From positions 61,760,001 to 61,824,000 of the forward strand of contig CP086569.2 of the NCBI GenBank assembly GCA_009914755.4: DNA of 64,000 nt, given 5' to 3'. The stretch is from the human T2T-CHM13v2.0 reference genome, Homo sapiens. The position numbers and the translations under genes were made by a program. Numbering within the stretch: the stretch's first letter is position 1; each line of letters opens with the position of its first letter. The notes beneath the pieces are model-generated. The model was given only the letters and a program-made list of their open reading frames with translations, ran no database searches and was not told the origin of the DNA. Shown here in pieces: positions 28 through 59,750 of this stretch.

Positions 28-3000
28 GACTCGAAACTAATGGACTGGAATCGAATGGACTCGACTGGTACGGACTCCAATGGAATGGAATCGAATGGAA
101 TGGAATCGAACGGAATGAACTCGAAGTGAAAAGAGTGCAATGGAAAGGTCTCGAATGGAATGGAAATTAATGGAATGGAATGGAATCGAATGAAATGGAG
201 TCAAAAGGAATGGAATCGAATGGCAAGAAATCGAATGTAATGGAATCACAAGGAATGGATGTGAACGGAACGGAATGGAATGGAATCAAAAGGAATGGAA
301 TCGAATGGAATGGACTCGAATGGAAATGACACGAATAGAATGCAATTTAATAAAATAGAATCAAATGTAATGGAATGGAATGGAAAGGAATCGTAACGAA
401 AGGAATGGAGACAGATGGAATGGAATGGAACAGAGAGCAATGGTATAGAATGGAATGGAATCATATGGAATGGAATTGAATGGAATGGAATAATATGAAA
501 TGGAATGGAAAGGAATGGAATGCACTTGAATTAAATGGACTGGAATGGAATGGACTCGAACGGAGTGGAATGGAAAGGATTGAAATAGAATGGAATGGAC
601 TCCTTTGGAATGGTCTAGTATTCAATGCAAACGACTGGCAGGGAATCAAAAGGAATGTAATCGAATGGATTGGACTGGAATACAATGGACTCGAATACGT
701 TGGAAACGGAATGCAATGGAATGGAATGGAATAGTATGCAATGGAACGGAAAGGAATGAAGTAGAATGGACTAGAGTGGAATGGAATGGACTCGAAAGCA
801 ATGGACTGGAATGGAACGATCTTGAATGGACCGGAATCAAACGGAACGGAATGCAATGCAAGGCAATCAAATGGAATGGAATAAAAGAGAATGAAAGAGA
901 ATCAAATGCAATTGAATCGAATGGAATCGAATGGATTGGAAAGGAATAGAATGGAATGGAATGGAATTGACTCCAATGGAATGGACTAGAACGGAATGGA
1001 GTCGAATGGAAGGCAAAGGAATGGAATCTATTGGAATGGACTGTAATGGAATGGCATGGAAGGGATTGGAATGGACTCGAATGGAAAGGACTGCAATAGA
1101 AAGGATTCGAATGGAATGAAAAAGAATTGAATGGAATAGAACAGAATGGAATCAAATCGAATGAAATGGAATGGAATAGAAAGGAATGGAATGAAATGGA
1201 ATGGAAAGGATTCAAATGGAATGCAATCGAATGGAATGCAATAGAATGGAATGGAATCGAACGGAATGGAATAAAATGGAAGGAAACTGGCAAGAAATGG
1301 AATCGAAATGAATGGAGTGTTATGGAACGGACTCCAAAGGAATTGAATGTAATAGAATGGAGTGGAGTGGACTCGAATATAATGGACTGGAATGGAATGG
1401 AATCACATGGAATGGGAACGAATGGAATGGAATGGAAAGGAATGGAATCGAATGGAAAGGAATCAAATGGAAGGGAATGAAATTGAATCAACAGGAATGG
1501 AAGGGAATAGAATAGACTGTAATGGAATGGACTCGAATAGAATGGACACGAATGCTCAAATTGGATGGACTCGAATGGAATGGAAACGAAAGGAATGTCA
1601 TCGAATGGAATTGAATCGATTGGAATGAAATGGCATAGAATGGAGTGGAATGAAATGGAATTGAATCGAAAGGAAAGGAAGCGAATGGACTGAAATGAAA
1701 TGGAATGGAATTGAATGGAAAGTAATGCAATGGAATAGAATGGAACGAAATTTCACGGAATGGAATCAAACAGAATGGAATCAAATCAATGGAATATAAT
1801 CAAATGGAATGGAATGGAATGGAAAGGAATTGAATGGAATAGATTGGATAGGAAGGGATTGGAATGCAATGGAATGGAAAGGACTCGAATTTCATGAAAC
1901 GGAATGGAATGAATTGGAATGGAATGGACTCGAATGGAATGGAATGTCATGGAATGGCATCAAATGGAATGGAATCAAATGGAATGGCATCGAATGCAAT
2001 GGAATGTTATGGAATGGAATGGAATGTATTGGAATGGAATGTCCTCTAATGGAATGGATTCGAGTGGAATGGAATCGAATATAATGGAGTCGAATGAAAT
2101 GGAATTGAAAGGAATGGGATCGAATAGAATGGAATATACTGGAATGTAATGTAATGAAGTCGAATGTAATTGACTGGAATAGAATGTACATGAATGGAAT
2201 GTAATCGAATGGAAAGTAATCCAATGAAATAGAATCTAATGCAATAAAACCGACTCAAATGGAATAGAATGTAATGGAATGGAGTGCAGTGCAATGGAAT
2301 GGAATGGAATGGAATGGAATGGAGTGGAATGGAATGGAATGGGATGGAATGGTATGGAATGGATAGTAAAGGACTGGAGTGAAATGGACTGTAAAGGAAT
2401 GGACTCCAATTGAAAGGGCTCGAAAGGAATGGAGTCAAATGGAATGGTCTGGAATGGAATGAACTCGAATGTAATGCAATCCAATAGAATGGAATCGAAT
2501 GGAATGGAATATAAAGAAATGGAATCGACGAGAATGGAAACAGATGGAATGGAATTGAAAGGAATGGAATTGAATGGAATGGGCATGAATGGAATGAAAT
2601 TGTATGGAATAGAAGAGAATAGAATGGAATGCAATGGATAAGAAAGGAATGGATTGGAATGGAAGGGAATGTAGTGTAATGGACTGGCATGGAATAAACT
2701 GCAATGCTACGGACTCAAATGGAATAAAAATGTATGGAATGGAATGCCATGAAACGGAATCGAATGTCATAGAATGTAATGGAATGCAAAAAAATGGACT
2801 CCAAAATCATTGACTGGAAAGGCTGGGTGTCGAAAGGAATTGACTCCAATGGAATGGAATCGAATGGAACGGAAGTGAATAGAATCGAACTAAATCGAAT
2901 GGAATGGAATTGATAGGAACGGAATGGAAAGGAATGGAATGATTTGGCATGGAATGGAATCGAATGGACTCGAATGGAATGGAATGGAATGCAATGCAAT

Positions 3001-3562
3001 GGAATGTATTAGAATGTAGTGAACTTTAATGGAATGAACTCGAATGGATTCGACTGGAATGGAATGTTCTGGAAGTGAATGGACTCCAATGGAATGGATT
3101 CAAAAGGAATGGAATCGAAGGGAATGGAATCTAATGGAATGGAATGAAATGGAAAGGAATCAAATCGAATAGCACGGAATTGAACTGAATGGAATCGAAT
3201 GCAATGGAATCTAATGAAACGGAAAGGAAAGGAACGGAATGGCATGGAATGGGCTGGAATGGAATGGAATCGAAACGAATGGAAAGGAATCGAACTGAAG
3301 AGACTGGAATGGAATGCACTGGCATGGAAGGGAGTTTAATGGAAGGTTCTCGAAAAGACTGGAATCGAATGCAATGGAATTGAATGGAACGGATATAGAG
3401 TCAAATGGAATTGAATGGAATGGAATGGAGTAGAGTGAAATGGAATCGAGTCACAAGGAATGGACAGGAATAGAACGGTCTCGAATTGAATGGAATCGTA
3501 TGGAATGGAATTCAACGGAATGGAATGGACAGCCACGGAATGGAATGCACTCGAATGCAATG
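28..3562 (+). repeat. HOR unit 1 (3535 bp), subtype I
   Basis: Landmark gactcgaaactaatgg at 28 and next at 3563. Carries subtype-I diagnostic states (gtattcaatgcaaacg at ~620; ctggaatacaatggactcgaatacgttgg at ~675-702). Confidence 0.85.
2786..2837 (+). other. Least pentamer-like segment of the HOR (A7 run plus gctgggtgtcgaaagg); recurs once per unit and could serve as a unit-specific anchor
   Basis: gcaaaaaaatggactccaaaatcattgactggaaaggctgggtgtcgaaagg at 2786-2837. The same segment recurs at about +3535 intervals (6321, 9855, 13389 and so on); the divergent units carry the same block with SNVs. Confidence 0.6.
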
Positions 3563-6500
3563 CACTCGAAACTAATGGACTGGAATCGAATGGACTCGAC
3601 TGGTACGGACTCCAATGGAATGGAATCGAATGGAATGGAATCGAACGGAATGGACTCGAAGTGAAAAGAGTGCAATGGAAAGGTCTCGAATGGAATGGAA
3701 ATTAATGGAATGGAATGGAATCGAATGAAATGGAGTCAAAAGGAATGGAATCGAATGGCAAGAAATCGAATGTAATGGAATCACAAGGAATGGATGTGAA
3801 CGGAACGGAATGGAATGGAATCAAAAGGAATGGAATCGAATGGAATGGACTCGAATGGAAATGACTCGAATAGAATGGAATTCAACAAAATAGAATCAAA
3901 TGTAATGGAATGGAATGGAAAGGAATCAAAACGAAAGGAATGGAGACAGATGGAATGGAATGGAACAGAGAACAATTGTATATAATGGAATGGAATCATA
4001 TGGAATGGAATTGAATGGAATGAAATAATATAAAATGGAATGGAAAGGAATGGAATGCACTTGAATTAAATGGACTGGAATGGAATGGACTCGAACGGAG
4101 TGGAATGGAAAGGATTGAAATAGAATGGAATGGACTCCTTTGGAATGGTCTAGTATGCAATGCAAACGACTGGCAGGGAATCAAAAGGAATGTAATCGAA
4201 TGGATTGGCCTGGAATCAATGGACTCGAATACATTGGAAACGGAATGCAATGGAATGGAATGGAATAGTATGGAATGGAACGGAAAGGAATGAAGTAAAA
4301 TGGACTAGAGTGGAATGGAATGGACTCGAAAGCAATGGACTGGAATGGAACGATCTTGAATGGACCGGAATCAAACGGAAAGGAATGCAATGCAAGGCAA
4401 TCAAATGGAATGGAATAAAAGAGAATGAAAGAGAATCAAATGCAATTGAATCGAATGGAATCGAATGGATTGGAAAGGAATAGAATGGAATGGAATGGAA
4501 TTGACTCAAATGGAATGGACTAGAACGGAATGGAGTCGAATGGAAGGCAAAGGAATGGAATCTATTGGAATGGACTGTAATGGAATGGCATGGAAGGGAT
4601 TGGAATGGACTCGAATGGAAAGGACTGCAATAGAAAGGATTCGAATGGAATGAAAAAGAATTGAATGGAATAGAACAGAATGGAATCAAATCGAATGAAA
4701 TGGAATGGAATAGAAAGGAATGGAATGAAACGGAATGGAAAGGATTCAAATGGAATGCAATCGAATGGAATGCAATCGAATGGAATGGAATCGAACGGAA
4801 TGGAATAAAATGGAAGGAAACTGGCAAGAAATGGAATCGAAATGAATGGAGTGTTATGGAACGGACTCCAAAGGAATTGAATGTAATAGAATGGAGTGGA
4901 GTGGACGCGAACATAATGGACTGGAATGGAATGGAATCACATGGAATGGGAACGAATGGAATGGAATGGAAAGGAATGGAATCGAATGGATAGGAATCAA
5001 ATGGAAGGGAATGAAATTGAATCAACAGGAATGGAAGGGAATAGAATAGACTGTAATGGAATGGACTCGAATAGAATGGACACGAATGCTCAAATTGGAT
5101 GGACTCGAATGGAATGGAAACGAAAGGAATGTCATCGAATGGAATTGAATCGATTGGAATGAAATGGCATAGAATGGATTGGAATGAAATGGAATTGAAT
5201 CGAAAGGAAAGGAAGCGAATGGACTGAAATGAAATGGAATGGAATTAAATGGAAAGTAATGCAATGGAATAGAATGGAACGAAATTTCACGGAATGGAAT
5301 CAAACAGAATGGAATCAAATCAATTGAATATAATCAAATGGAATGGAATGGAATGGAAAGGAAATGAATGGAATAGATTGGATAGGAAGGGATTGGAATG
5401 CAATGGAATGGAAAGGACTCGAATTTCATGAAACGGAATGGAATGAATTGGAATGGAATGGACTCGAATGGAATGGAATGTCATGGAATGGCATCAAATG
5501 GAATGGAATCAAATGGAATGGCATCGAATGCAATGGAATGTTATGGAATGGAATGGAATGTATTGGAATGGAATGTCCTCTAATGGAATGGATTCGAGTG
5601 GAATGGAATCAAATATAATGGAGTCGAATGAAATGGAATTGAAAGGAATGGGATCGAATAGAATGGAATATACTGGAATGTAATGTAATGAAGTCGAATG
5701 TAATTGACTGGAATGGAATGTACATGAATGGAATGTAATCGAATAGAAAGTAATCCAATGAAATAGAATCTAATGCAATAAAACCGACTCAAATGGAATA
5801 GAATGTAATGGAATGGAGTGCAGTGCAATGGAATGGAATGGAATGGAATGCAATGGAGTGGAATGGAATGGAATGGGATGGAATGGTATGGAATGGATAG
5901 TAAAGGACTGGAGTGAAATGGACTGTAAAGGAATGGACTCCAATTGAAAGGGCTCGAAAGGAATGGAGTCAAATGGAATGGTCTGGAATGGAATGAACTC
6001 GAATGTAATGCAATCCAATAGAATGGAATCGAATGGAATGGAATATAAAGAAATGGAATCGACGAGAATGGAAACAGATGGAATGGAATTGAAAGGAATG
6101 GAATTGAATGGAATGGGCACGAATGGAATGAAATTGTATGGAATAGAAGAGAATAGAATGGAATGCAATGGATAAGAAAGGAATGGATTGGAATGGAAGG
6201 GAATGTAGTGTAATGGACTGGCATGGAATAAACTGGAATGCTACGGTCTCAAATGGAATAAAAATGTATGGAATGGAATGCCATGAAACGGAATCGAATG
6301 TCATAGAATGTAATGGAATGCAAAAAAATGGACTCCAAAATCATTGACTGGAAAGGCTGGGTGTCGAAAGGAATTGACTCCAATGGAATGGAATCGAATG
6401 GAATGGAAGTGAATAGAATCGAACTAAATCGAATGGAATGGAATTGATAGGAACGGAATGGAAAGGAATGGAATGATTTGGCATGGAATGGAATCGAATG

Positions 6501-7096
6501 GACTCGAATGGAATGGAATGGAATGCAATGGAATGGAATGTATTAGAATGTAGTGAACTTTAATGGAATGAACTCGAATGGATTCGACTGGAATGGAATG
6601 TTCTGGAAGTGAATGAACTCCAATGGAATGGATTCAAAAGGAATGGAATCGAAGGGAATGGAATCTAATGGAATGGAATGAAATGGAAAGGAATCAAATC
6701 GAATAGCACGGAATTGAACTGAATGGAATCGAATGCAATGGAATCTAATGAAACGGAAAGGAAAGGAATGGAATGGCATGGAATGGGCTGGAATGGAATG
6801 GAATCGAAACGAATGGAATGGAATCGAACTGAAGAGACTGGAATGGAATGCATTGGCATGGAAGGGAGTTTAATGGAAGGTTCTCGAAAAGACTGGAATC
6901 GAATGGAATGGAATTGAATGGAACGGATATAGAGTCAAATGGAATTGAATGGAATGGAATGGAGTAGAGTGAAATGGAATCGAGTCACAAGGAATGGACA
7001 GGAATAGAACGGTCTCGAATTGAATGGAATCGTATGGAATGGAATTCAACGGAATGGAATGGACAGCCACGGAATGGAATGCACTCGAATGCAATG
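3563..7096 (+). repeat. HOR unit 2 (3534 bp), subtype II
   Basis: Subtype-II states: agagaacaattgtatataatgg (~3966), gtatgcaatgcaaacg (~4155), ggattggcctggaatcaatggactcgaatacattgg (~4203-4236, a 1-bp deletion relative to type I). Confidence 0.85.
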
Positions 7097-10000
7097 GACT
7101 CGAAACTAATGGACTGGAATCGAATGGACTCGACTGGTACGGACTCCAATGGAATGGAATCGAATGGAATGGAATCGAACGGAATGAACTCGAAGTGAAA
7201 AGAGTGCAATGGAAAGGTCTCGAATGGAATGGAAATTAATGGAATGGAATGGAATCGAATGAAATGGAGTCAAAAGGAATGGAATCGAATGGCAAGAAAT
7301 CGAATGTAATGGAATCACAAGGAATGGATGTGAACGGAACGGAATGGAATGGAATCAAAAGGAATGGAATCGAATGGAAAGGACTCGAATGGAAATGACT
7401 CGAATAGAATGGAATTCAACAAAATAGAGTCAAATGTAATGGAATGGAATGGAAAGGAATCGAAACGAAAGGAATGGAGACAGATGGAATGGAATGGAAC
7501 AGAGAGCAATGGTATAGAATGGAATGGAATCATATGGAATGGAATTGAATGGAATGGAATAATATGAAATGGAATGGAAAGGAATGGAATGCACTTGAAT
7601 TAAATGGACTGGAATGGAATGGACTCGAACGGAGTGGAATGGAAAGGATTGAAATAGAATGGAATGGACTCCTTTGGAATGGTCTAGTATTCAATGCAAA
7701 CGACTGGCAGGGAATCAAAAGGAATGTAATCGAATGGATTGGACTGGAATACAATGGACTCGAATACGTTGGAAACGGAATGCAATGGAATGGAATGGAA
7801 TAGTATGCAATGGAACGGAAAGGAATGAAGTAGAATGGACTAGAGTGGAATGGAATGGACTCGAAAGCAATGGACTGGAATGGAACGATCTTGAATGGAC
7901 CGGAATCAAACGGAACGGAATGCAATGCAAGGCAATCAAATGGAATGGAATAAAAGAGAATGAAAGAGAATCAAATGCAATTGAATCGAATGGAATCGAA
8001 TGGATTGGAAAGGAATAGAATGGAATGGAATGGAATTGACTCCAATGGAATGGACTAGAACGGAATGGAGTCGAATGGAAGGCAAAGGAATGGAATCTAT
8101 TGGAATGGACTGTAATGGAATGGCATGGAAGGGATTGGAATGGACTCGAATGGAAAGGACTGCAATAGAAAGGATTCGAATGGAATGAAAAAGAATCGAA
8201 TGGAATAGAACAGAATGGAATCAAATCGAATGAAATGGAATGGAATAGAAAGGAATGGAATGAAATGGAATGGAAAGGATTCAAATGGAATGCAATCGAA
8301 TGGAATGCAATAGAATGGAATGGAATCGAACGGAATGGAATAAAATGGAAGGAAACTGGCAAGAAATGGAATCGAAATGAATGGAGTGTTATGGAACGGA
8401 CTCCAAAGGAATTGAATGTAATAGAATGGAGTGGAGTGGACTCGAATATAATGGACTGGAATGGAATGGAATCACATGGAATGGGAACGAATGGAATGGA
8501 ATGGAAAGGAATGGAATCGAATGGAAAGGAATCAAATGGAAGGGAATGAAATTGAATCAACAGGAATGGAAGGGAATAGAATAGACTGTAATGGAATGGA
8601 CTCGAATAGAATGGACACGAATGCTCAAATTGGATGGACTCGAATGGAATGGAAACGAAAGGAATGTCATCGAATGGAATTGAATCGATTGGAATGAAAT
8701 GGCATAGAATGGAGTGGAATGAAATGGAATTGAATCGAAAGGAAAGGAAGCGAATGGACTGAAATGAAATGGAATGGAATTGAATGGAAAGTAATGCAAT
8801 GGAATAGAATGGAACGAAATTTCACGGAATGGAATCAAACAGAATGGAATCAAATCAATGGAATATAATCAAATGGAATGGAATGGAATGGAAAAGAATT
8901 GAATGGAATAGATTGGATAGGAAGGGATTGGAATGCAATGGAATGGAAAGGACTCGAATTTCATGAAACGGAATGGAATGAATTGGAATGGAATGGACTC
9001 GAATGGAATGGAATGTCATGGAATGGCATCAAATGGAATGGAATCAAATGGAATGGCATCGAATGCAATGGAATGTTATGGAATGGAATGGAATGTATTG
9101 GAATGGAATGTCCTCTAATGGAATGGATTCGAGTGGAATGGAATCGAATATAATGGAGTCGAATGAAATGGAATTGAAAGGAATGGGATCGAATAGAATG
9201 GAATATACTGGAATGTAATGTAATGAAGTCGAATGTAATTGACTGGAATGGAATGTACATGAATGGAATGTAATCGAATGGAAAGTAATCCAATGAAATA
9301 GAATCTAATGCAATAAAACCGACTCAAATGGAATAGAATGTAATGGAATGGAGTGCAGTGCAATGGAATGGAATGGAATGGAATGGAATGGAGTGGAATG
9401 GAATGGAATGGGATGGAATGGTATGGAATGGATAGTAAAGGACTGGAGTGAAATGGACTGTAAAGGAATGGACTCCAATTGAAAGGGCTCGAAAGGAATG
9501 GAGTCAAATGGAATGGTCTGGAATGGAATGAACTCGAATGTAATGCAATCCAATAGAATGGAATCGAATGGAATGGAATATAAAGAAATGGAATCGACGA
9601 GAATGGAAACAGATGGAATGGAATTGAAAGGAATGGAATTGAATGGAATGGGCACGAATGGAATGAAATTGTATGGAATAGAAGAGAATAGAATGGAATG
9701 CAATGGATAAGAAAGGAATGGATTGGAATGGAAGGGAATGTAGTGTAATGGACTGGCATGGAATAAACTGGAATGCTACGGTCTCAAATGGAATAAAAAT
9801 GTATGGAATGGAATGCCATGAAACGGAATCGAATGTCATAGAATGTAATGGAATGCAAAAAAATGGACTCCAAAATCATTGACTGGAAAGGCTGGGTGTC
9901 GAAAGGAATTGACTCCAATGGAATGGAATCGAACGGATTGGAAGTGAATAGAATCGAACTAAATCGAATGGAATGGAATTGATAGGAACGGAATGGAAAG

Positions 10001-10631
10001 GAATGCAATGATTTGGCATGGAATGGAATCGAATGGACTCGAATGGAATGGAATGGAATGCAATGCAATGGAATGTATTAGAATGTAGTGAACTTTAATG
10101 GAATGAACTCGAATGGATTCGACTGGAATGGAATGTTCTGGAAGTGAATGGACTCCAATGGAATGGATTCAAAAGGAATGGAATCGAAGGGAATGGAATC
10201 TAATGGAATGGAATGAAATGGAAAGGAATCCAATCGAATAGCACGGAATTGAATTGAATGGAATCGAATGCAATGGAATCTAATGAAACGGAAAGGAAAG
10301 GAACGGAATGGCATGGAATGGGCTGGAATGGAATGGAATCGAAACGAATGGAATGGAATCGAACTGAAGAGACTGGAATGGAATGCACTGGCATGGAAGG
10401 GAGTTTAATGGAAGGTTCTCGAAAAGACTGGAATCGAATGCAATGGAATTGAATGGAACGGATATAGAGTCAAATGGAATTGAATGGAATGGAATGGAGT
10501 AGAGTGAAATGGAATCGAGTCACAAGGAATGGACAGGAATAGAACGGTCTCGAATTGAATGGAATCGTATGGAATGGAATTCAACGGAATGGAATGGACA
10601 GCCACGGAATGGAATGCACTCGAATGCAATG
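7097..10631 (+). repeat. HOR unit 3 (3535 bp), subtype I
   Basis: The landmark period and the translated ORF set match unit 1, with a few private SNVs (for example aagaatcgaatgg at ~8200; aatccaatcgaatagc at ~10229). Confidence 0.85.
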
Positions 10632-34800: not shown

Positions 34801-35373
34801 TGCAATGCAATGGAATGTATTAGAATGTAGTGAACTTTAATGGAATGAACTCGAATGGATTCGACTGGAATGGAATGTTCTGGAAGTGAATGGACTCCAA
34901 TGGAATGGATTCAAAAGGAATGGAATCGAAGGGAATGGAATCTAATGGAATGGAATGAAATGGAAAGGAATCAAATCGAATAGCACGGAATTGAACTGAA
35001 TGGAATCGAATGCAATGGAATCTAATGAAACGGAAAGGAAAGGAATGGAATGGCATGGAATGGGCTGGAATGGAATGGAATCGAAACGAATGGAATGGAA
35101 TCGAACTGAAGAGACTGGAATGGAATGCACTGGCATGGAAGGGAGTTTAATGGAAGGTTCTCGAAAAGACTGGAATCGAATGCAATGGAATTGAATGGAA
35201 CGGATATAGAGTCAAATGGAATTGAATGGAATGGAATGGAGTAGAGTGAAATGGAATCGAGTCACAAGGAATGGACAGGAATAGAACGGTCTCGAATTGA
35301 ATGGAATCGTATGGAATGGAATTCAACGGAATGGAATGGACAGCCACGGAATGGAATGCACTCGAATGCAATG
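31839..35373 (+). repeat. HOR unit 10 (3535 bp), subtype I
   Basis: Landmark period. Begins a run of consecutive type-I units, which breaks the I/II alternation. Confidence 0.85.
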
Positions 35374-38300
35374 GACTCGAAACTAATGGACTGGAATCGA
35401 ATGGACTCGACTGGTACGGACTCCAATGGAATGGAATCGAATGGAATGGAATCGAACGGAATGAACTCGAAGTGAAAAGAGTGCAATGGAAAGGTCTCGA
35501 ATGGAATGGAAATTAATGGAATGGAATGGAATCGAATGAAATGGAGTCAAAAGGAATGGAATCGAATGGCAAGAAATCGAATGTAATGGAATCACAAGGA
35601 ATGGATGTGAACGGAACGGAATGGAATGGAATCAAAAGGAATGGAATCGAATGGAATGGACTCGAATGGAAATGACTCGAATAGAATGGAATTCAACAAA
35701 ATAGAATCAAATGTAATGGAATGGAATGGAAAGGAATCGAAACGAAAGGAATGGAGACAGATGGAATGGAATGGAACAGAGAGCAATGGTATAGAATGGA
35801 ATGGAATCATATGGAATGGAATTGAATGGAATGGAATAATATGAAATGGAATGGAAAGGAATGGAATGCACTTGAATTAAATGGACTGGAATGGAATGGA
35901 CTCGAACGGAGTGGAATGGAAAGGATTGAAATAGAATGGAATGGACTCCTTTGGAATGGTCTAGTATTCAATGCAAACGACTGGCAGGGAATCAAAAGGA
36001 ATGTAATCGAATGGATTGGACTGGAATACAATGGACTCGAATACGTTGGAAACGGAATGCAATGGAATGGAATGGAATAGTATGCAATGGAACGGAAAGG
36101 AATGAAGTAGAATGGACTAGAGTGGAATGGAATGGACTCGAAAGCAATGGACTGGAATGGAACGATCTTGAATGGACCGGAATCAAACGGAACGGAATGC
36201 AATGCAAGGCAATCAAATGGAATGGAATAAAAGAGAATGAAAGAGAATCAAATGCAATTGAATCGAATGGAATCGAATGGATTGGAAAGGAATAGAATGG
36301 AATGGAATGGAATTGACTCAAATGGAATGGACTAGAACGGAATGGAGTCGAATGGAAGGCAAAGGAATGGAATCTATTGGAATGGACTGTAATGGAATGG
36401 CATGGAAGGGATTGGAATGGACTCGAATGGAAAGGACTGCAATAGAAAGGATTCGAATGGAATGAAAAAGAATTGAATGGAATAGAACAGAATGGAATCA
36501 AATCGAATGAAATGGAATGGAATAGAAAGGAATGGAATGAAATGGAATGGAAAGGATTCAAATGGAATGCAATCGAATGGAATGCAATCGAATGGAATGG
36601 AATCGAACGGAATGGAATAAAATGGAAGGAAACTGGCAAGAAATGGAATCGAAATGAATGGAGTGTTATGGAACGGACTCCAAAGGAATTGAATGTAATA
36701 GAATGGAGTGGAGTGGACTCGAATATAATGGACTGGAATGGAATGGAATCACATGGAATGGGAACGAATGGAATGGAATGGAAAGGAATGGAATCGAATG
36801 GAAAGGAATCAAATGGAAGGGAATGAAATTGAATCAACAGGAATGGAAGGGAATAGAATAGACTGTAATGGAATGGACTCGAATAGAATGGACACGAATG
36901 CTCAAATTGGATGGACTCGAATGGAATGGAAACGAAAGGAATGTCATCGAATGGAATTGAATCGATTGGAATGAAATGGCATAGAATGGAGTGGAATGAA
37001 ATGGAATTGAATCGAAAGGAAAGGAAGCGAATGGACTGAAATGAAATGGAATGGAATTGAATGGAAAGTAATGCAATGGAATAGAATGGAACGAAATTTC
37101 ACGGAATGGAATCAAACAGAATGGAATCAAATCAATGGAATATAATCAAATGGAATGGAATGGAATGGAAAGGAATTGAATGGAATAGATTGGATAGGAA
37201 GGGATTGGAATGCAATGGAATGGAAAGGACTCGAATTTCATGAAACGGAATGGAATGAATTGGAATGGAATGGACTCGAATGGAATGGAATGTCATGGAA
37301 TGGCATCAAATGGAATGGAATCAAATGGAATGGCATCGAATGCAATGGAATGTTATGGAATGGAATGGAATGTATTGGAATGGAATGTCCTCTAATGGAA
37401 TGGATTCGAGTGGAATGGAATCGAATATAATGGAGTCGAATGAAATGGAATTGAAAGGAATGGGATCGAATAGAATGGAATATACTGGAATGTAATGTAA
37501 TGAAGTCGAATGTAATTGACTGGAATGGAATGTACATGAATGGAATGTAATCGAATGGAAAGTAATCCAATGAAATAGAATCTAATGCAATAAAACCGAC
37601 TCAAATGGAATAGAATGTAATGGAATGGAGTGCAGTGCAATGGAATGGAATGGAATGGAATGGAATGGAGTGGAATGGAATGGAATGGGATGGAATGGTA
37701 TGGAATGGATAGTAAAGGACTGGAGTGAAATGGACTGTAAAGGAATGGACTCCAATTGAAAGGGCTCGAAAGGAATGGAGTCAAATGGAATGGTCTGGAA
37801 TGGAATGAACTCGAATGTAATGCAATCCAATAGAATGGAATCGAATGGAATGGAATATAAAGAAATGGAATCGACGAGAATGGAAACAGATGGAATGGAA
37901 TTGAAAGGAATGGAATTGAATGGAATGGGCACGAATGGAATGAAATTGTATGGAATAGAAGAGAATAGAATGGAATGCAATGGATAAGAAAGGAATGGAT
38001 TGGAATGGAAGGGAATGTAGTGTAATGGACTGGCATGGAATAAACTGGAATGCTACGGTCTCAAATGGAATAAAAATGTATGGAATGGAATGCCATGAAA
38101 CGGAATCGAATGTCATAGAATGTAATGGAATGCAAAAAAATGGACTCCAAAATCATTGACTGGAAAGGCTGGGTGTCGAAAGGAATTGACTCCAATGGAA
38201 TGGAATCGAACGGATTGGAAGTGAATAGAATCGAACTAAATCGAATGGAATGGAATTGATAGGAACGGAATGGAAAGGAATGGAATGATTTGGCATGGAA

Positions 38301-38908
38301 TGGAATCGAATGGACTCGAATGGAATGGAATGGAATGCAATGCAATGGAATGTATTAGAATGTAGTGAACTTTAATGGAATGAACTCGAATGGATTCGAC
38401 TGGAATGGAATGTTCTGGAAGTGAATGGACTCCAATGGAATGGATTCAAAAGGAATGGAATCGAAGGGAATGGAATCTAATGGAATGGAATGAAATGGAA
38501 AGGAATCAAATCGAATAGCACGGAATTGAACTGAATGGAATCGAATGCAATGGAATCTAATGAAACGGAAAGGAAAGGAATGGAATGGCATGGAATGGGC
38601 TGGAATGGAATGGAATCGAAACGAATGGAATGGAATCGAACTGAAGAGACTGGAATGGAATGCACTGGCATGGAAGGGAGTTTAATGGAAGGTTCTCGAA
38701 AAGACTGGAATCGAATGCAATGGAATTGAATGGAACGGATATAGAGTCAAATGGAATTGAATGGAATGGAATGGAGTAGAGTGAAATGGAATCGAGTCAC
38801 AAGGAATGGACAGGAATAGAACGGTCTCGAATTGAATGGAATCGTATGGAATGGAATTCAACGGAATGGAATGGACAGCCACGGAATGGAATGCACTCGA
38901 ATGCAATG
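35374..38908 (+). repeat. HOR unit 11 (3535 bp), subtype I
   Basis: Landmark period. Differs from unit 10 by only a few SNVs (for example MECPLM here versus MEYPLM in unit 10). Confidence 0.85.
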
Positions 38909-41900
38909 GACTCGAAACTAATGGACTGGAATCGAATGGACTCGACTGGTACGGACTCCAATGGAATGGAATCGAATGGAATGGAATCGAACGGAATGAA
39001 CTCGAAGTGAAAAGAGTGCAATGGAAAGGTCTCGAATGGAATGGAAATTAATGGAATGGAATGGAATCGAATGAAATGGAGTCAAAAGGAATGGAATCGA
39101 ATGGCAAGAAATCGAATGTAATGGAATCACAAGGAATGGATGTGAACGGAACGGAATGGAATGGAATCAAAAGGAATGGAATCGAATGGAATGGACTCGA
39201 ATGGAAATGACTCGAATAGAATGGAATTCAACAAAATAGAATCAAATGTAATGGAATGGAATGGAAAGGAATCGAAACGAAAGGAATGGAGACAGATGGA
39301 ATGGAATGGAACAGAGAGCAATGGTATAGAATGGAATGGAATCATATGGAATGGAATTGAATGGAATGGAATAATATGAAATGGAATGGAAAGGAATGGA
39401 ATGCACTTGAATTAAATGGACTGGAATGGAATGGACTCGAACGGAGTGGAATGGAAAGGATTGAAATAGAATGGAATGGACTCTTTTGGAATGGTCTAGT
39501 ATGCAATGCAAACGACTGGCAGGGAACCAAAAGGAATGTAATCGAATGGATTGGACTGGAATACAATGGACTCGAATACGTTGGAAACGGAATGCAATGG
39601 AATGGAATGGAATAGTATGGAATGGAACGGAAAGGAATGAAGTAGAAAGGACTAGAGTGGAATGGAATGGACTCGAAAGCAATGGACTGGAATGGAACGA
39701 TCTTGAATGGACCGGAATCAAACGGAACGGAATGCAATGCAAGGCAATCAAATGGAATGGAATAAAAGAGAATGAAAGAGAATCAAATGCAATTGAATCG
39801 AATGGAATCGAATGGATTGGAAAGGAATAGAATGGAATGGAATGGAATTGACTCAAATGGAATGGACTAGAACGGAATGGAGTCGAATGGAAGGCAAAGG
39901 AATGGAATCTATTGGAATGGACTGTAATGGAATGGCATGGAAGGGATTGGAATGGACTCGAATGGAAAGGACTGCAATAGAAAGGATTCGAATGGAATGA
40001 AAAAGAATTGAATGGAATAGAACAGAATGGAATCAAATCGAATGAAATGGAATGGAATAGAAAGGAATGGAATGAAATGGAATGGAAAGGATTCAAATGG
40101 AATGCAATCGAATGGAATGCAATCGAATGGAATGGAATCAAACGGAATGGAATAAAATGGAAGGAAACTGGCAAGAAATGGAATCGAAATGAATGGAGTG
40201 TTATGGAACGGACTCCAAAGGAATTGAATGTAATAGAATGTAGTGGAGAGGACTCGAATATTATGGACTGGAATGGAATGGAATCACATGGAATGGGAAC
40301 GAATGGAATGGAATGGAAAGGAATGGAATCGAATGGAAAGGAATCGAATGGAAGGGAATGAAATTGAATCAACAGGAATGGAAGGGAATAGAATGGACTG
40401 TAATGGAATGGACTCGAATAGAATGGACACGAATGCTCAAATTGGATGGACTCGAATGGAATGGAAACGAAAGGAATGTCATCGAATGGAATTGAATCGA
40501 TTGGAATGAAATGGCATAGAATGGAGTGGAATGAAATGGAATTGAATCGAAAGGAAAGGAAGTGAATGGACTGAAATGAAATGGAATGGAATTGAATGGA
40601 AAGTAATGCAATGGAATAGAATGGAACGAAATTTCACGGAATGGAATCAAACAGAATGGAATCAAATCAATGGAATATAATCAAATGGAATGGAATGGAA
40701 TGGAAAGGAATTGAATGGAATAGATTGGATAGGAAGGGATTGGAATGCAATGGAATGGAAAGGACTCGAATTTCATGAAACGGAATGGAATGAATTGGAA
40801 TGGAATGGACTCGAATGGAATGGAATGTCATGGAATGGCATCAAATGGAATGGAATCAAATGGAATGGCATCGAATGCAATGGAATGTTATGGAATGGAA
40901 TGGAATGTATTGGAATGGAATGTCCTCTAATGGAATGGATTCGAGTGGAATGGAATCGAATATAATGAAGTCGAATGAAATGGAATTGAAAGTAATGGGA
41001 TCGAATAGAATGGAATATACTGGAATGTAATGTAATGAAGTCGAATGTAATTGACTGGAATGGAATGTACATGAATGGAATGTAATCGAATGGAAAGTAA
41101 TCCAATGAAATAGAATCTAATGCAATAAAACCGACTCAAATGTAATAGAATGTAATGGAATGGAGTGCAGTGCAATGGAATGGAATGGAATGGAATGCAA
41201 AGGAGTGGAATGGAATGGAATGGGATGGAATGGTATGGTATGGATAGTAAAGGACTGGAGTGAAATGGACTGTAAAGGAATGGACTCCAATTGAAAGGGC
41301 TCGAAAGGAATGGAGTCAAATGGAATGGTCTGGAATGGAATGAACTCGAATGTAATGCAATCCAATAGAATGGAATCGAATGGAATGGAATATAAAGAAA
41401 TGGAATCGACGAGAATGGAAACAGATGGAATGGAATTGAAAGGAATGGAATTGAATGGAATGGGCACGAATGGAATGAAATTGTATGGAATAGAAGAGAA
41501 TAGAATGGAATGCAATGGATAAGAAAGGAATGGATTGGAATGGAAGGGAATGTAGTGTAATGGACTGGCATGGAATAAACTGGAATGCTACGGTCTCAAA
41601 TGGAATAAAAATGTATGGAATGGAATGCCATGAAACGGAATCGAATGTCATAGAATGTAATGGAATGCAAAAAAATGGACTCCAAAATCATTGACTGGAA
41701 AGGCTGGGTGTCGAAAGGAATTGACTCCAATGGAATGGAATCGAATGGAATGGAAGTGAATAGAATCGAACTAAATCGAATGGAATGGAATTGATAGGAA
41801 CGGAATGGAAAGGAATGGAATGATTTGGCATGGAATGGAATCGAATGGACTCGAATGGAATGGAATGGAATGCAATGCAATGGAATGTATTAGAATGTAG

Positions 41901-42443
41901 TGAACTTTAATGGAATGAACTCGAATGGATTCGACTGGAATGGAATGTTCTGGAAGTGAATGGACTCCAATGGAATGGATTCAAAAGGAATGGAATCGAA
42001 GGGAATGGAATCTAATGGAATGGAATGAAATGGAAAGGAATCAAATCGAATAGCACGGAATTGAACTGAATGGAATCGAATGCAATGGAATCTAATGAAA
42101 CGGAAAGGAAAGGAATGGAATGGCATGGAATGGGCTGGAATGGAATGGAATCGAAACGAATGGAATGGAATCGAACTGAAGAGACTGGAATGGAATGCAC
42201 TGGCATGGAAGGGAGTTTAATGGAAGGTTCTCGAAAAGACTGGAATCGAATGCAATGGAATTGAATGGAACGGATATAGAGTCAAATGGAATTGAATGGA
42301 ATGGAATGGAGTAGAGTGAAATGGAATCGAGTCACAAGGAATGGACAGGAATAGAACGGTCTCGAATTGAATGGAATCGTATGGAATGGAATTCAACGGA
42401 ATGGAATGGACAGCCACGGAATGGAATGCACTCGAATGCAATG
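38909..42443 (+). repeat. HOR unit 12 (3535 bp), I/II mosaic
   Basis: Has type-II gtatgcaatgcaaacg at ~39500 and the type-I ctggaatacaatggactcgaatacgttgg at ~39555-39585. Several private SNVs remove stop codons and so create the 376-aa artefactual ORF at 39242..40372. Confidence 0.8.
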
Positions 42444-45400
42444 GACTCGAAACTAATGGACTGGAATCGAATGGACTCGACTGGTACGGACTCCAATGGA
42501 ATGGAATCGAATGGAATGGAAACGAACGGAATGAACTCGAAGTGAAAAGAGTGCAATGGAAAGGTCTCGAATGGAATGGAAATTAATGGAATGGAATGGA
42601 ATCGAATGAAATGGAGTCAAAAGGAATGGAATCGAATGGCAAGAAATCGAATGTAATGGAATCACAAGGAATGGATGTGAACGGAACGGAATGGAATGGA
42701 ATCAAAAGGAATGGAATCGAATGGAATGGACTCGAATGGAAATGACTCGAATAGAATGGAATTCAACAAAATAGAATCAAATGTAATGGAATGGAATGGA
42801 AAGGAATCGAAACGAAAGGAATGGAGACAGATGGAATGGAATGGAACAGAGAGCAATGGTATAGAATGGAATGGAATCATATGGAATGGAATTGAATGGA
42901 ATGGAATAATATGAAATGGAATGGAAAGGAATGGAATGCACTTGAATTAAATGGACTGGAATGGAATGGACTCGAACGGAGTGGAATGGAAAGGATTGAA
43001 ATAGAATGGAATGGACTCCTTTGGAATGGTCTAGTATGCAATGCAAACGACTGGCAGGGAATCAAAAGGAATGTAATCGAATGGATTGGACTGGAATACA
43101 ATGGACTCGAATACGTTGGAAACGGAATGCAATGGAATGGAATGGAATAGTATGGAATGGAACGGAAAGGAATGAAGTAGAAAGGACTAGAGTGGAATGG
43201 AATGGACTCGAAAGCAATGGACTGGAATGGAACGATCTTGAATGGACCGGAATCAAACGGAACGGAATGCAATGCAAGGCAATCAAATGGAATGGAATAA
43301 AAGAGAATGAAAGAGAATCAAATGCAATTGAATCGAATGGAATCGAATGGATTGGAAAGGAATAGAATGGAATGGAATGGAATTGACTCAAATGGAATGG
43401 ACTAGAACGGAATGGAGTCGAATGGAAGGCAAAGGAATGGAATCTATTGGAATGGACTGTAATGGAATGGCATGGAAGGGATTGGAATGGACTCGAATGG
43501 AAAGGACTGCAATAGAAAGGATTCGAATGGAATGAAAAAGAATTGAATGGAATAGAAGAGAATGGAATCAAATCGAATGAAATGGAATGGAATAGAAAGG
43601 AACGGAATGAAATGGAATGGAAAGGATTCAAATGGAATGCAATCGAATGAAATGCAATCGAATGAAATGGAATCGAACGGAATAGAATAAAATGGAAGGA
43701 AACTGGCAAGAAATGGAATCGAAATGAATGGAGTGTTATGGAACGGACTCCAAAGGAATTGAATGTAATAGAATGGAGTGGAGTGGACTCGAATATAACG
43801 GACTGGAATGGAATGGAATCACATGGAATGGGAACGAATGGAATGGAATGGAAAGGAATGGAATCGAATGGAAAGGAATCAAATGGAAGGGAATGAAATT
43901 GAATCAACAGGAATGGAAGGGAATAGAATAGACTGTAATGGAATGGACTCGAATAGAATGGACACGAATGCTCAAATTGGATGGACTCGAATGGAATGGA
44001 AACGAAAGGAATGTCATCGAATGGAATTGAATCGATTGGAATGAAATGGCATAGAATGGAGTGGAATGAAATGGAATTGTATCGAAAGGAAAGGAAGCGA
44101 ATGGACTGAAATGAAATGGAATGGAATTGAATGGAAAGTAATGCAATGGAATAGAATGGAACGAAATTTCACGGAATGGAATCAAAGAGAATGGAATCAA
44201 ATCAATGAAATATAATCAAATGGAATGGAATGGAATGGAAAGGAATTGAATGGAATAGATTGGATAGGAAGGGATTGGAATGCAATGGAATGGAAAGGAC
44301 TCGAATTTCATGAAACGGAATGGAATGAATTGGAATGGAATGGACTCGAATGGAATGGAATGTCATGGAATGGCATCAAATGGAATGGCATCGAATGCAA
44401 TGGAATGTTATGGAATGGAATGGAATGTATTGGAATGGAATGTCCTCTAATGGAATGGATTCGAGTGGAATGGAATCGAATGTAATGGAGTCGAATGAAA
44501 TGGAATTGAAAGGAATGGGATCGAATAGAATGGAATATACTGGAATGTAATGTAATGAAGTCGAATGTAATTGACTGGAATGGAATGTACATGAATGGAA
44601 TGTAATCGAATGGAAAGTAATCCAATGAAATAGAATCTAATGCAATAAAACCGACTCAAATGGAATAGAATGTAATGGAATGGAGTGCAGTGCAATGGAA
44701 TGGAATGGAATGGAATGCAATGGAGTGGAATGGAATGGAATGGGATGGAATGGTATGGAATGGATAGTAAAGGACTGGAGTGAAATGGACTGTAAAGGAA
44801 TGGACTCCAATTGAAAGGGCTCGAAAGGAATGGAGTCAAATGGAATGGTCTGGAATGGAATGAACTCGAATGTAATGCAATCCAATAGAATGGAATCGAA
44901 TGGAATGGAATATAAAGAAATGGAATCGACGAGAATGGAAACAGATGGAATGGAATTGAAAGGAATGGAATTGAATGGAATGGGCATGAATGGAATGAAA
45001 TTGTATGGAATAGAAGAGAATAGAATGGAATGCAATGGATAAGAAAGGAATGGATTGGAATGGAAGGGAATGTAGTGTAATGGACTGGCATGGAATAAAC
45101 TGGAATGCTACGGTCTCAAATGGAATAAAAATGTATGGAATGGAATGCCATGAAACGGAATCGAATGTCATAGAATGTAATGGAATGCAAAAAAATGGAC
45201 TCCAAAATCATTGACTGGAAAGGCTGGGTGTCGAAAGGAATTGACTCCAATGGAATGGAATCGAATGGAATGGAAGTGAATAGAATCGAACTAAATCGAA
45301 TGGAATGGAATTGATAGGAACGGAATGGAAAGGAATGGAATGATTTGGCATGGAATGGAATCGAATGGACTCGAATGGAATGGAATGGAATGCAATGCAA

Positions 45401-45963
45401 TGGAATGTATTAGAATGTAGTGAACTTTAATGGAATGAACTCGAATGGATTCGACTGGAATGGAATGTTCTGGAAGTGAATGGACTCCAATGGAATGGAT
45501 TCCAAAGGAATGGAATCGAAGGGAATGGAATCTAATGGAATGGAATGAAATGGAAAGGAATCCAATCGAATAGCACGGAATTGAATTGAATGGAATCGAA
45601 TGCAATGGAATCTAATGAAACGGAAAGGAAAGGAACGGAATGGCATGGAATGGGCTGGAATGGAATGGAATCGAAACGAATGGAATGGAATCGAACTGAA
45701 GAGACTGGAATGGAATGCACTGGCATGGAAGGGAGTTTAATGGAAGGTTCTCGAAAAGACTGGAATCGAATGGAATGGAATTGAATGGAACGGATATAGA
45801 GTCAAATGGAATTGAATGGAATGGAATGGAGTAGAGTGAAATGGAATCGAGTCACAAGGAATGGACAGGAATAGAACGGTCTCGAATTGAATGGAATCGT
45901 ATGGAATGGAATTCAACGGAATGGAATGGACAGCCACGGAATGGAATGCACTCGAATGCAATG
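42444..45963 (+). repeat. HOR unit 13 (3520 bp), mosaic, with a 15-bp in-phase deletion
   Basis: The unit is 15 bp shorter. The canonical ggcatcaaatggaatggaatcaaatggaatggcatcgaatg becomes ggcatcaaatggaatggcatcgaatg at ~44380-44405 (loss of three pentamers). Confidence 0.8.
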
Positions 45964-59500: not shown

Positions 59501-59750
59501 CTCGAATGGATTCGACTGGAATGGAATGTTCTGGAAGTGAATGGACTCCAATGGAATGGATTCAAAAGGAATGGAATCGAACAGAATGGAATCTAATGGA
59601 ATGGAATTAAATGGAAAGGAATCAAATGGAATAGCACGGAATTGAATTGAATGGAATCGAATGCAATGTAATCTAATGAAACGGAAAGGAAAGGAACGGA
59701 ATGGCATGGAATGGGCTGGAATGGAATGGAATCAAAACGAATGGAATGGA
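53700..59750 (+). repeat. Diverged HSat3 HOR island (about 1.7 units) inside the homogeneous array
   Basis: By eye, roughly 5-10 percent nucleotide divergence plus indels relative to the flanking units, which differ from each other by well under 1 percent. Its two copies resemble each other more than they resemble canonical units. Still a pure pentamer satellite, with no foreign sequence. Confidence 0.75.

What the first reader, a model, noticed from the sequence alone, without database searches (positions are those of the whole stretch)
28..45963. Two HOR subtypes alternate to give a 7,069-bp dimeric super-unit, then collapse into a run of type-I units
Units 1-8 alternate strictly between subtype I (3535 bp) and subtype II (3534 bp), distinguished by a 1-bp indel (gaatacaatgg versus gaatcaatgg) and linked SNVs (gtattcaatg versus gtatgcaatg; acgttgg versus acattgg; agagagcaatggtatagaatgg versus agagaacaattgtatataatgg). 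Units 9-13 are all type I or I-like (period 3535), so the dimeric organisation is lost and unit 14 resumes a type-II variant. This is the expected signature of local homogenisation by unequal crossover over a dimeric ancestral HOR.
Basis: seen in the sequence. Interest (0 to 1): 0.5.

Follow-up and report, generated by a model that had tools for sequence, protein, structure and literature searches.

The report
Local dimer pattern in Y satellite
This is a stretch of a diverged form of the human Y-chromosome DYZ1 satellite in which neighbouring 3.5-kb repeat units alternate between two variants because two- and four-unit blocks were recently re-copied, which is ordinary satellite turnover and not a new kind of structure.

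Summary
The window holds 18 full units of a (GGAAT)n-derived 3.5-kb repeat. Units 1-8 alternate 3535/3534 bp, and the difference is a 1-bp deletion that co-segregates perfectly with four other sites. Three details are wrong. Unit 13 is 3,520 bp, not 3,535. The strongest periodicity in units 1-7 is 14,138 bp (Ia-IIa-Ib-IIb), not 7,069 bp.

The repeat belongs to the DYZ1/HSat3A6 family. It is a diverged subfamily: about 96% substitution identity to a cloned 3,564-bp DYZ1 unit, nine indels, and no canonical HaeIII site.

Rooting on canonical DYZ1 makes type II a derived clade and "type I" a grade. U18, U12, U13 and U15 are basal with long private branches, whereas the alternating units are almost identical copies (0-8 differences). 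The dimer or tetramer is therefore most likely a young local amplification by unequal exchange, overlaid by short conversion tracts. It is probably not an ancestral dimeric HOR that collapsed. This is ordinary and of low interest.

The parts
28..3562 (.). U1, 3535 bp, type Ia
   Evidence: Identical to U5 (0 differences). Three derived sites are shared with U5 only.
3563..7096 (.). U2, 3534 bp, type IIa (1-bp deletion at 4216|4217)
   Evidence: Differs from U8 by 1 event and from U6 by 4. Twelve derived substitutions are shared by U2, U6 and U8.
7097..10631 (.). U3, 3535 bp, type Ib with a mosaic 3' part
   Evidence: Eight events from U7 and U9. All differences lie at unit positions 947-3258, and most of the alleles are shared with other units (U1/U5, U11, U13/U18; 2910 is private to U3).
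10632..14165 (.). U4, 3534 bp, type IIb
   Evidence: Carries the deletion. It is 18 events from U14 and 29-30 from IIa, with 5 private substitutions.
14166..17700 (.). U5, 3535 bp, type Ia
   Evidence: Window 1-3562 is an exact copy of 14139-17700 at lag 14,138.
17701..21234 (.). U6, 3534 bp, type IIa, with a short patch of type I alleles at 19749-19989
   Evidence: Three consecutive informative sites (2050, 2184, 2290) carry type I alleles in an otherwise IIa unit.
21235..24769 (.). U7, 3535 bp, type Ib
   Evidence: Two events from U9.
24770..28303 (.). U8, 3534 bp, type IIa
   Evidence: 3564-8042 is an exact copy of 24771-29249 (lag 21,207), and 19990-24491 is an exact copy of 27059-31560 (lag 7,069).
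28304..31838 (.). U9, 3535 bp, type Ib; last unit of the alternating block
31839..38908 (.). U10 and U11, 3535 bp each, type Ic; ancestral-like hub of the young I clade and a one-unit duplication
   Evidence: Four events apart, with 0-1 private substitutions. U10 is the hub of the minimum spanning tree.
38909..42443 (.). U12, 3535 bp, basal I-like unit
   Evidence: Thirteen private substitutions and ancestral alleles at 595, 712 and 2290.
42444..45963 (.). U13, 3520 bp, basal I-like unit with a 15-bp deletion at 44374|44375
   Evidence: Ten private substitutions. The deletion lies between direct repeats ATCAAATGGAATGG.
45964..49497 (.). U14, 3534 bp, type IIb
   Evidence: Carries the deletion at 46617|46618. 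Seven private substitutions; sister to U4 (92% bootstrap).
49498..53032 (.). U15, 3535 bp, mosaic I-like unit
   Evidence: Shares 841 and 965 with IIb, and 2559, 2675, 2686 and 3258 with Ia. Seven private substitutions.
53033..53695 (.). Head of U16, type II-like (1-bp deletion at 53686|53687)
   Evidence: Twenty-five of 26 main-versus-canonical marker events are 'main'. It shares 410, 421, 470, 647 and 655 with IIa.
53700..59740 (.). About 6 kb of a third DYZ1 lineage (body of U16 plus most of U17), with in-register junctions inside units
   Evidence: About 3-3.5% substitutions from canonical DYZ1 and about 4% from the main type. It carries the canonical AGGCCT HaeIII site (55640, 59149) and the classic 154-bp DYZ1 amplicon sites. 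The markers switch to 'main' after unit position ~3250 of U17.
60025..63559 (.). U18, 3535 bp, basal unit (neither I nor II)
   Evidence: Haplotype G/A/A at 595/655/672, the same as independent copies L016 and L031. Basal in the rooted tree.
63560..64000 (.). Partial U19, closest to U18
   Evidence: Three mismatches to U18 over 441 bp.

Best explanation
The window is part of an array of a diverged subfamily of the human Y-chromosome satellite DYZ1 (HSat3A6). GGAAT lies on the + strand and the unit is 3,535 bp.

The left part (U1-U11) is a recently expanded zone. A four-unit block Ia-IIa-Ib-IIb (14,138 bp) is present about 1.75 times. It is followed by one more IIa-Ib dimer (7,069 bp) and then by a one-unit duplication of an ancestral-like I unit (U10/U11). 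The I/II alternation follows from re-copying blocks of an even number of units, most plausibly by out-of-register unequal sister-chromatid exchange at offsets of 2, 4 and 6 units. Short gene-conversion tracts lie on top of this.

The right part (U12-U18) is an older zone that has not been homogenised. It contains basal I-like units, one IIb unit and a 6-kb patch of a third DYZ1 lineage. The dimer is therefore a young, local, derived amplification, not an ancestral HOR that decayed.

Shown here: the sequence relationships, the polarity of alleles and family membership. Inferred: the exchange mechanism and the order of events.
For: Identity. The HSat3A6-specific 24-mer from Altemose 2014 (PMC4022460, Table 1) occurs exactly once per unit in 14 of 19 units, and no other subfamily's marker 24-mer matches exactly. 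The units are colinear over their full length with the cloned 3,564-bp DYZ1 unit printed in the supplement of PMC3925983, at 95.9-96.2% substitution identity. GC is 38.9% with 1 CpG per 34 bp, against 38% and 1 per 35 bp reported for DYZ1.

Block copying. Exact repeats are 1-3562 = 14139-17700, 3564-8042 = 24771-29249 and 19990-24491 = 27059-31560. Distances at lags 4 and 6 are 0-8 events, against 32-44 at lag 1.

Youth of the alternating part. Terminal branches are 0-1 substitutions in U1-U11 (except U4, with 5) and 6-13 in U12-U15 and U18.

Polarity. Canonical DYZ1 has G at position 655, so A (type I) and the deletion (type II) are both derived. U12, U13, U15 and U18 keep ancestral alleles where the dimer's I units are derived. 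In the rooted NJ tree, II has 88% support, I-narrow 71%, and 'all I-like' only 31.5%, with U18 basal. The minimum spanning tree is a star centred on U10, not two clusters. The two independent copies of the subfamily (L016, L031) have the basal haplotype, with no II alleles and no derived I alleles.

Conversion. U6 has a 3-site patch; U3 and U15 are mosaic; 234 of 1,653 site pairs fail the four-gamete test.

Literature. Sister-chromatid exchange and iterative tandem duplication in Yq12 are reported in the T2T-Y paper (10.1101/2022.12.01.518724). De novo gene conversion in Yq12 is reported in PMC13252187. Homogeneous array centres with diverged peripheries are reported by Hallast et al. (10.1101/2022.12.01.518658).
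Against: Only 64 kb of an array that may span hundreds of kb is visible, and the alternation reaches the left edge of the window and may continue far beyond it. The IIa branch is long (12 derived substitutions), so type II lineages are old, and an old I-II pairing elsewhere in the array is not excluded. Conversion is pervasive, so tree-based polarity is approximate, and bootstraps for the I grade are only 56-71%. Only two short, short-read-assembled external copies of this subfamily were found. Chromosomal location and species were not tested directly.
Confidence: 0.7

Rival explanations
1. The ancestral repeat was a 7,069-bp I-II dimer. Unequal crossover between I units removed the II units and homogenised units 9-13 into a run of type I.
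For: Strict I/II alternation over units 1-9 and the return of a II unit at U14. Type II is an old, well-supported clade. U9-U11 are similar to one another at 4-8 events, as a local I-I expansion would give.
Against: U12 and U13 (and U15, U18) retain ancestral alleles at sites where the dimer's I units are derived, and they have 6-13 private substitutions, so they are not recent products of the dimer's I units. U10 and U11 lack the derived alleles of both Ia and Ib and sit at the ancestral node. Copies inside the alternating block are 0-8 events apart, making it the youngest part of the window. External copies of the subfamily are basal-like. Unit 13 is 3,520 bp.
Confidence: 0.15
2. There was no block duplication. 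The alternation is a patchwork produced only by short-tract gene conversion among neighbouring units, or is chance ordering of variants.
For: Conversion-like patches exist (U6, U1/U5, U4), and many site pairs fail the four-gamete test.
Against: Uninterrupted exact matches of 3.5-4.5 kb cross unit boundaries at lags of 2, 4 and 6 units. These are far longer than the patches of about 0.01-1 kb seen here. Permutation tests reject chance ordering (p = 0.008 and 0.017).
Confidence: 0.05
3. Assembly artefact. Near-identical units from different places were threaded together, creating an artificial alternation.
For: Yq12-type satellite is hard to assemble, and manual graph curation is described for such regions (PMC13252187). 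No reads are available here to check.
Against: The units carry consistent, phylogenetically structured private variants, and the junctions are clean and in register. The identical stretches (at most 4.5 kb) are shorter than typical long reads. Nothing in the sequence itself indicates a mis-join.
Confidence: 0.05

Closest known systems
Canonical DYZ1 / HSat3A6 unit of human Yq12 (3,564-bp HaeIII unit, e.g. GenBank KF941192 as printed in PMC3925983; 3,569 bp is the commonest length in Hallast et al.)
   Same: Pentamer-derived (TTCCA/GGAAT) satellite with a unit of about 3.5 kb, colinear over the full length. Shares the HSat3A6 marker 24-mer and the same GC and CpG density. Primers C and F of PMC3925983 match perfectly.
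   Different: About 4% substitutions plus nine indel events (net -34 bp). The canonical HaeIII/StuI site is lost in 16 of 18 units, and the classic primer sites are mismatched (Y1.1 with 3-5 mismatches). Five independent canonical copies, including the clone, are 99.6-99.8% alike, so this is a separate subfamily and not noise.
Iterative tandem duplications and unequal exchange in Yq12 DYZ1/DYZ2 blocks (T2T-Y paper, 10.1101/2022.12.01.518724), and homogenised array centres with diverged peripheries (Hallast et al., 10.1101/2022.12.01.518658)
   Same: The same process, in-register re-copying of multi-unit blocks, and the same gradient from a homogeneous zone (U1-U11) to a heterogeneous zone (U12-U18).
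   Different: The scale here is 7-21 kb inside one array. The papers describe events up to 5 Mb spanning whole blocks, and I found no description of a 7,069-bp or 14,138-bp DYZ1 super-unit in the texts searched.
Nested higher-order repeats and HOR variants in alpha satellite (from my own knowledge, not tested here)
   Same: Variant units that alternate create a longer period through unequal crossover. Local HOR variants mark recently expanded domains.
   Different: The base unit here is itself a 3.5-kb higher-order unit of a 5-bp satellite. There is no centromere function, and the super-unit spans only about 9 units in the window.

Membership tests
DYZ1 / HSat3A6 (human Y satellite III subfamily) | Derived from the pentamer CATTC/GGAAT | tested here: met
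   TRF periods of 5n cover positions 3-63962. The + strand is GGAAT-rich, with GC skew +0.55.
DYZ1 / HSat3A6 (human Y satellite III subfamily) | Higher-order unit of about 3.5-3.6 kb | tested here: met
   Units are 3535/3534 bp, with variants of 3520, 3504 and 3488 bp. Published lengths are 3,564 and 3,569 bp, with a mean of 3,543 bp.
DYZ1 / HSat3A6 (human Y satellite III subfamily) | Subfamily-specific 24-mer TCGTTTCGATTCCTTTCCATTCCA (Altemose 2014, Table 1) | tested here: met
   Exact on the - strand once per unit in 14 of 19 units; the other five differ at polymorphic sites 366/367. None of the other 13 subfamily marker 24-mers matches exactly. Only one marker per subfamily was available.
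DYZ1 / HSat3A6 (human Y satellite III subfamily) | Full-length colinear homology to a cloned DYZ1 unit | tested here: met
   95.9-96.9% substitution identity over about 3,500 aligned bases to the 3,564-bp clone sequence. This is lower than the 99.75% shown by typical copies.
DYZ1 / HSat3A6 (human Y satellite III subfamily) | One HaeIII site per unit, giving the 3.4-3.56-kb male-specific band | tested here: not met
   The canonical AGGCCT site is present only in U16 and U17. A virtual digest of the window gives 14,138, 7,069, 28,263, 1,963 and 3,509 bp. Hallast's supplement reports HaeIII fragments of more than 200 kb in DYZ1 arrays, so site-less stretches are known.
DYZ1 / HSat3A6 (human Y satellite III subfamily) | Located in Yq12, male-specific, interspersed with DYZ2 blocks | not testable with these tools
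   No human genome is available to the tools, and the window contains no DYZ2 and no array boundary. Two independent human-contaminated metagenome contigs (L016, L031) carry the same subfamily.
Dimeric higher-order repeat (two subtypes forming a 7,069-bp super-unit) | Units two apart are more alike than adjacent units | tested here: met
   In U1-U9 the mean distance is 17.3 at lag 2 and 38.5 at lag 1, p = 0.008. This does not hold in U9-U15 (23.8 versus 22.2).
Dimeric higher-order repeat (two subtypes forming a 7,069-bp super-unit) | Diagnostic sites co-segregate into exactly two haplotypes | tested here: not met
Five sites do share one perfect partition, but type II splits into IIa and IIb (29-30 events apart) and 'type I' is a grade.
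Dimeric higher-order repeat (two subtypes forming a 7,069-bp super-unit) | The dimer is the ancestral or array-wide organisation | tested here: inconclusive
   Within the window the evidence points the other way: the dimer copies are young, the non-dimer units are basal, and the external copies are basal-like. The rest of the array is not visible.

The most novel reading that the evidence does not exclude
The window samples a DYZ1 subfamily that has not been catalogued: a 3,535-bp unit without the HaeIII site, about 4% diverged and with nine indels relative to bulk DYZ1. Its local hierarchy of 5 bp, 3.5 kb, 7.07 kb and 14.1 kb, together with an embedded 6-kb patch of a third lineage, would mark a boundary zone where distinct DYZ1 lineages exchange sequence. 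Such variants could serve as markers for tracing how Yq12 arrays are gained, lost and homogenised across Y haplogroups.
Probability: 0.25. Interest if true: 0.3.

Novelty: already known. Interest (0 to 1): 0.15.

Why it matters
It matters little beyond bookkeeping. The window is a clean small-scale example of how unequal exchange and short conversion tracts build nested periodicities in a Y-chromosome satellite. It also shows that a local dimer can be a young derived amplification and need not be a relic.

There are two practical points. Units of this subfamily would escape HaeIII-based or classic-primer-based DYZ1 assays. Variant-typed units like these could serve as markers for array history if they were catalogued across complete Y assemblies.

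Tried and rejected
- Full-text searches for the classic Y1.1/Y1.2 DYZ1 primer strings found nothing usable. The primers were verified instead because their sequence spans the HaeIII junction of the cloned DYZ1 unit.
- A scan of viral contigs with the diagnostic pattern gave 0 hits.
- The metagenome loci L001, L013 and L025 carry the U18-like 3-site haplotype, but they align only at about 70% overall, with one segment of about 740-800 bp at about 93%. They are another HSat3 type and say nothing about this subfamily.
- The long contigs BNJT/BNJU (L004, L010, L023) are only 90-94% identical to any unit, possibly because of assembly errors (not tested). I did not use them for unit lengths or as canonical references.
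- Searching Hallast's supplement for 3535, 3534, 7069, 3569 and 3559 gave nothing.
- A literature search for a described DYZ1 dimer, multimer or subfamily returned only irrelevant papers.
- I first read U16 and U17 as simple mosaics of main-type and canonical DYZ1. I rejected this for their interiors once indels were collapsed to single events, because the m/c markers are interspersed there, as expected for an independent third lineage. Only the head of U16 and the tail of U17 are true main-type segments.
- No protein, RNA-family or structure tools were used, because the whole window is pentamer-derived satellite.
Full report
WHAT IS THERE

The whole 64-kb window is pentamer-derived satellite with GGAAT on the + strand, GC 38.9%, GC skew about +0.55 and 1 CpG per 34 bp. 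The distances between nearest identical 24-mers peak at 3,535, 3,534 and 7,069 bp, with smaller peaks at 14,138 bp and other multiples. BLAST of the first unit against the window delimits 18 full units and a partial 19th. Their lengths are 3535, 3534, 3535, 3534, 3535, 3534, 3535, 3534, 3535, 3535, 3535, 3535, 3520, 3534, 3535, 3488, 3504 and 3535 bp.

CHECK OF THE OBSERVATION

The 3535/3534 alternation in units 1-8 is real. It is caused by a 1-bp deletion at unit position 655 (GGAATACAATGG versus GGAAT-CAATGG), present in U2, 4, 6, 8 and 14 and also in the head of U16. Four further sites (820, 1170, 1430, 1618) split the 16 core units in exactly the same way, and five more are one unit off.

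The pattern is not chance. In U1-U9 the mean distance is 38.5 events between neighbours and 17.3 between units two apart (order permutation p = 0.008). An alternating run of 9 has p = 0.017. Uninterrupted exact repeats cross unit boundaries: 1-3562 = 14139-17700, 3564-8042 = 24771-29249, and 19990-24491 = 27059-31560.

Several details are wrong:
- Unit 13 is 3,520 bp. It has a 15-bp deletion at 44374|44375 between direct repeats ATCAAATGGAATGG.
- At position 595 (gtattcaatg versus gtatgcaatg), U12, U13, U15 and U18 carry the 'type II' allele.
- At position 672, U18 carries the 'type II' allele.
- The agagaacaattgtatataatgg block occurs only in U2, U6 and U8, not in U4 or U14.
- In U1-U7, units four apart differ by 0, 4 and 8 events, whereas units two apart differ by 16-30. 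A 14,138-bp four-unit block (Ia-IIa-Ib-IIb) describes that part better than a 7,069-bp dimer. The 7,069-bp lag dominates only for U6-U9.

WHAT IT IS

Altemose et al. 2014 (PMC4022460, Table 1) list the commonest subfamily-specific 24-mer for each of 14 HSat2/3 subfamilies. Only the HSat3A6 (DYZ1) marker is found exactly. It occurs once per unit on the - strand in 14 of 19 units, and the other five differ at polymorphic sites 366/367.

The supplement of PMC3925983 prints a cloned 3,564-bp DYZ1 HaeIII unit (MZT1a blood, GenBank KF941192). I transcribed it and recovered exactly 3,564 bases. Its ends contain the classic Y-specific primer sequences that I had recalled from memory, which verifies them.

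A pattern scan recovered 51 stretches of human contamination from public metagenomes and bacterial assemblies. Four collapsed full-length contigs (L030, L037, L045, L051; unit lengths 3,544, 3,559, 3,574 and 3,569 bp) are 99.75-99.78% identical to the clone, so they represent bulk DYZ1.

The window's 16 core units are colinear with this reference but only 95.9-96.2% identical in substitutions. Between the main-type consensus and the consensus of the canonical contigs there are nine indel events (-15, -5, +5, +9, +6, +10, -25, -20, +1). The core units lack the canonical AGGCCT HaeIII site. GGCC occurs only at 4207, 18345, 25414, 53677, 55640 and 59149, so a virtual digest would give fragments of 14,138, 7,069 and 28,263 bp instead of 3.56 kb. 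Hallast et al. report HaeIII fragments of more than 200 kb within DYZ1 arrays, so site-less stretches are already known.

Two independent contigs, L016 and L031, match the window's subfamily (about 96-99% over their whole length; 98.4-99.8% over the unit head) better than canonical DYZ1 (92-95%). The subfamily is therefore real and recurrent. Chromosomal location could not be tested.

FINE STRUCTURE AND POLARITY

I rooted the units on the canonical copies plus U16 and U17 and, in the NJ tree, on the cloned unit. The main results:
- Type II {2, 4, 6, 8, 14} is a derived clade defined by 1170, 1430 and 1618, plus the deletion and site 820. Bootstrap support is 88%.
- Type II has two branches. 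IIa {2, 6, 8} has 12 derived substitutions and 100% support. IIb {4, 14} has 92% support. The two are 29-30 events apart, as far as either is from the hub unit U10.
- 'Type I' is a grade. U18 is basal, and then U12, U13 and U15 branch off. The dimer's I units plus U10 and U11 form a young clade marked by derived alleles at 595 and 712 (71% support). A clade of all I-like units has only 31.5% support.
- At position 655, canonical DYZ1 has G in 47 of 52 external copies, so both A (type I) and the deletion (type II) are derived.
- Private substitutions number 0-1 in U1-U11 (5 in U4) but 13, 10, 7, 7 and 6 in U12, U13, U14, U15 and U18.
- L016 and L031 carry no type II alleles and none of the derived 595/712 alleles.

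The order along the array is Ia IIa Ib IIb Ia IIa Ib IIa Ib Ic Ic Id Ie IIb If (II-head/X) (X/I-tail) Ig.

MECHANISM

The simplest reading is repeated in-register unequal exchange at offsets of 4, 2 (and 6) and 1 units. On a Y chromosome this would be between sister chromatids, and the T2T-Y paper reports sister-chromatid exchange in Yq12. These events copied Ia-IIa-Ib(-IIb), then IIa-Ib, then Ic, within a pre-existing heterogeneous array that already held old I-like and II lineages.

Short conversion tracts are superimposed:
- U6 carries type I alleles at three consecutive sites (19749-19989).
- U1 and U5 carry canonical alleles at 316/321/324.
- U4 carries canonical alleles at 3482/3485/3486.
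- U3 and U15 are mosaics.
- 234 of 1,653 site pairs fail the four-gamete test.

De novo gene conversion in Yq12 has been seen in pedigrees (PMC13252187). The gradient from a homogeneous zone to a heterogeneous zone matches the pattern of homogeneous array centres and diverged peripheries described by Hallast et al..

A rough dating, as inference only. PMC13252187 reports 40 de novo SNVs in six transmissions and a cohort mean Yq12 length of 27 Mb, which gives about 2.5e-7 per bp per generation. At that rate, the single point difference across the roughly 8 kb shared by U1-U3 and U5-U7 implies a few hundred generations. The 1.1% divergence between types I and II implies roughly 20,000 generations.

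VERDICT ON THE INTERPRETATION

The family assignment and the general mechanism class are right. The claim that a dimeric ancestral HOR collapsed into type I is not supported. The non-alternating units U12, U13, U15 and U18 are older and basal, not homogenised descendants, and the alternating block is the youngest part of the window.

The caveats are real. Only 64 kb is visible, the alternation reaches the left edge, conversion blurs the tree, and only two external copies of the subfamily were found.

OUTSIDE THE FINDING'S RANGE

U16 and U17 differ from the other units at about 240-270 aligned columns (about 7%). After collapsing indels, 25 of 26 marker events in U16's first ~670 bp are main-type, and that head is type II-like. 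Sixteen of 17 marker events in U17's last ~370 bp are main-type. Between about 53,700 and 59,740 lies a third DYZ1 lineage. It is 3.0-3.5% from canonical DYZ1 and about 4% from the main type, and its two unit bodies are about 2% apart. It retains the canonical HaeIII site and the 154-bp classic amplicon.

NOVELTY

Nested periodicities produced by unequal exchange are textbook satellite behaviour. Tandem re-duplication, unit-length variation and HaeIII-less stretches in DYZ1 are already reported. I found no explicit description of this 3,535-bp subfamily or of a 7.07-kb or 14.1-kb super-unit in the texts I could search, but that is weak evidence that none exists. Interest is low.

Noticed in passing
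window ~53,700-59,740 (body of U16 plus most of U17): A patch of about 6 kb from a third DYZ1 lineage sits inside the array, with in-register junctions inside units. It keeps the canonical AGGCCT HaeIII site and the classic 154-bp DYZ1 PCR target. Its two unit bodies are about 2% apart, so it is not a fresh duplicate. It is either a relic or an inter-array conversion.
   Followed up: partly
window 4207, 18345, 25414, 53677, 55640, 59149: These are the only GGCC (HaeIII) sites. The IIa units gained a new site (TTGGCCTGG), while the canonical site is absent from all core units. A HaeIII digest would therefore give fragments of 14,138, 7,069 and 28,263 bp instead of the 3.56-kb DYZ1 band.
   Followed up: yes
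window 44374|44375 (U13): A 15-bp (three-pentamer) deletion lies between direct repeats ATCAAATGGAATGG, consistent with slippage. It makes U13 3,520 bp long.
   Followed up: yes
window 19749-19989 (U6): Three consecutive informative sites carry type I alleles inside an otherwise IIa unit. This is a short gene-conversion tract of at least 241 bp and less than about 1.2 kb.
   Followed up: yes
window 343-351 and 14481-14489 (U1, U5); ~14112-14116 (U4): Small clusters of three sites carry canonical-DYZ1 alleles in main-type units. U4's cluster is shared with U16. These are possible micro-conversion from other lineages or retained ancestral states.
   Followed up: no
unit positions 366-1803 in U2, U6, U8, U4 and U14: All 12 IIa-private substitutions and all five perfect I/II diagnostic sites lie in the 5' half of the unit. 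The 3' half is much more uniform across types.
   Followed up: no
L045-L051 (genome contigs) and L001-L044 (metagenome contigs): Human DYZ1 satellite is present as contamination in bacterial assemblies (for example Actinomadura cremea JCM 3308, Streptomyces JCM 4388 and 4381, Streptosporangium JCM 3281, and several MAGs) and in many metagenomes. Collapsed contigs give unit lengths of 3,544, 3,559, 3,569, 3,574 and 3,575 bp, most of which differ by multiples of 5.
   Followed up: partly
L001, L013, L025: Three metagenome contigs share the U18-like haplotype around the indel site, but they match DYZ1 at about 93% over only 740-800 bp and about 70% elsewhere. They appear to be a different HSat3-type repeat containing a DYZ1-like segment.
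   Followed up: no
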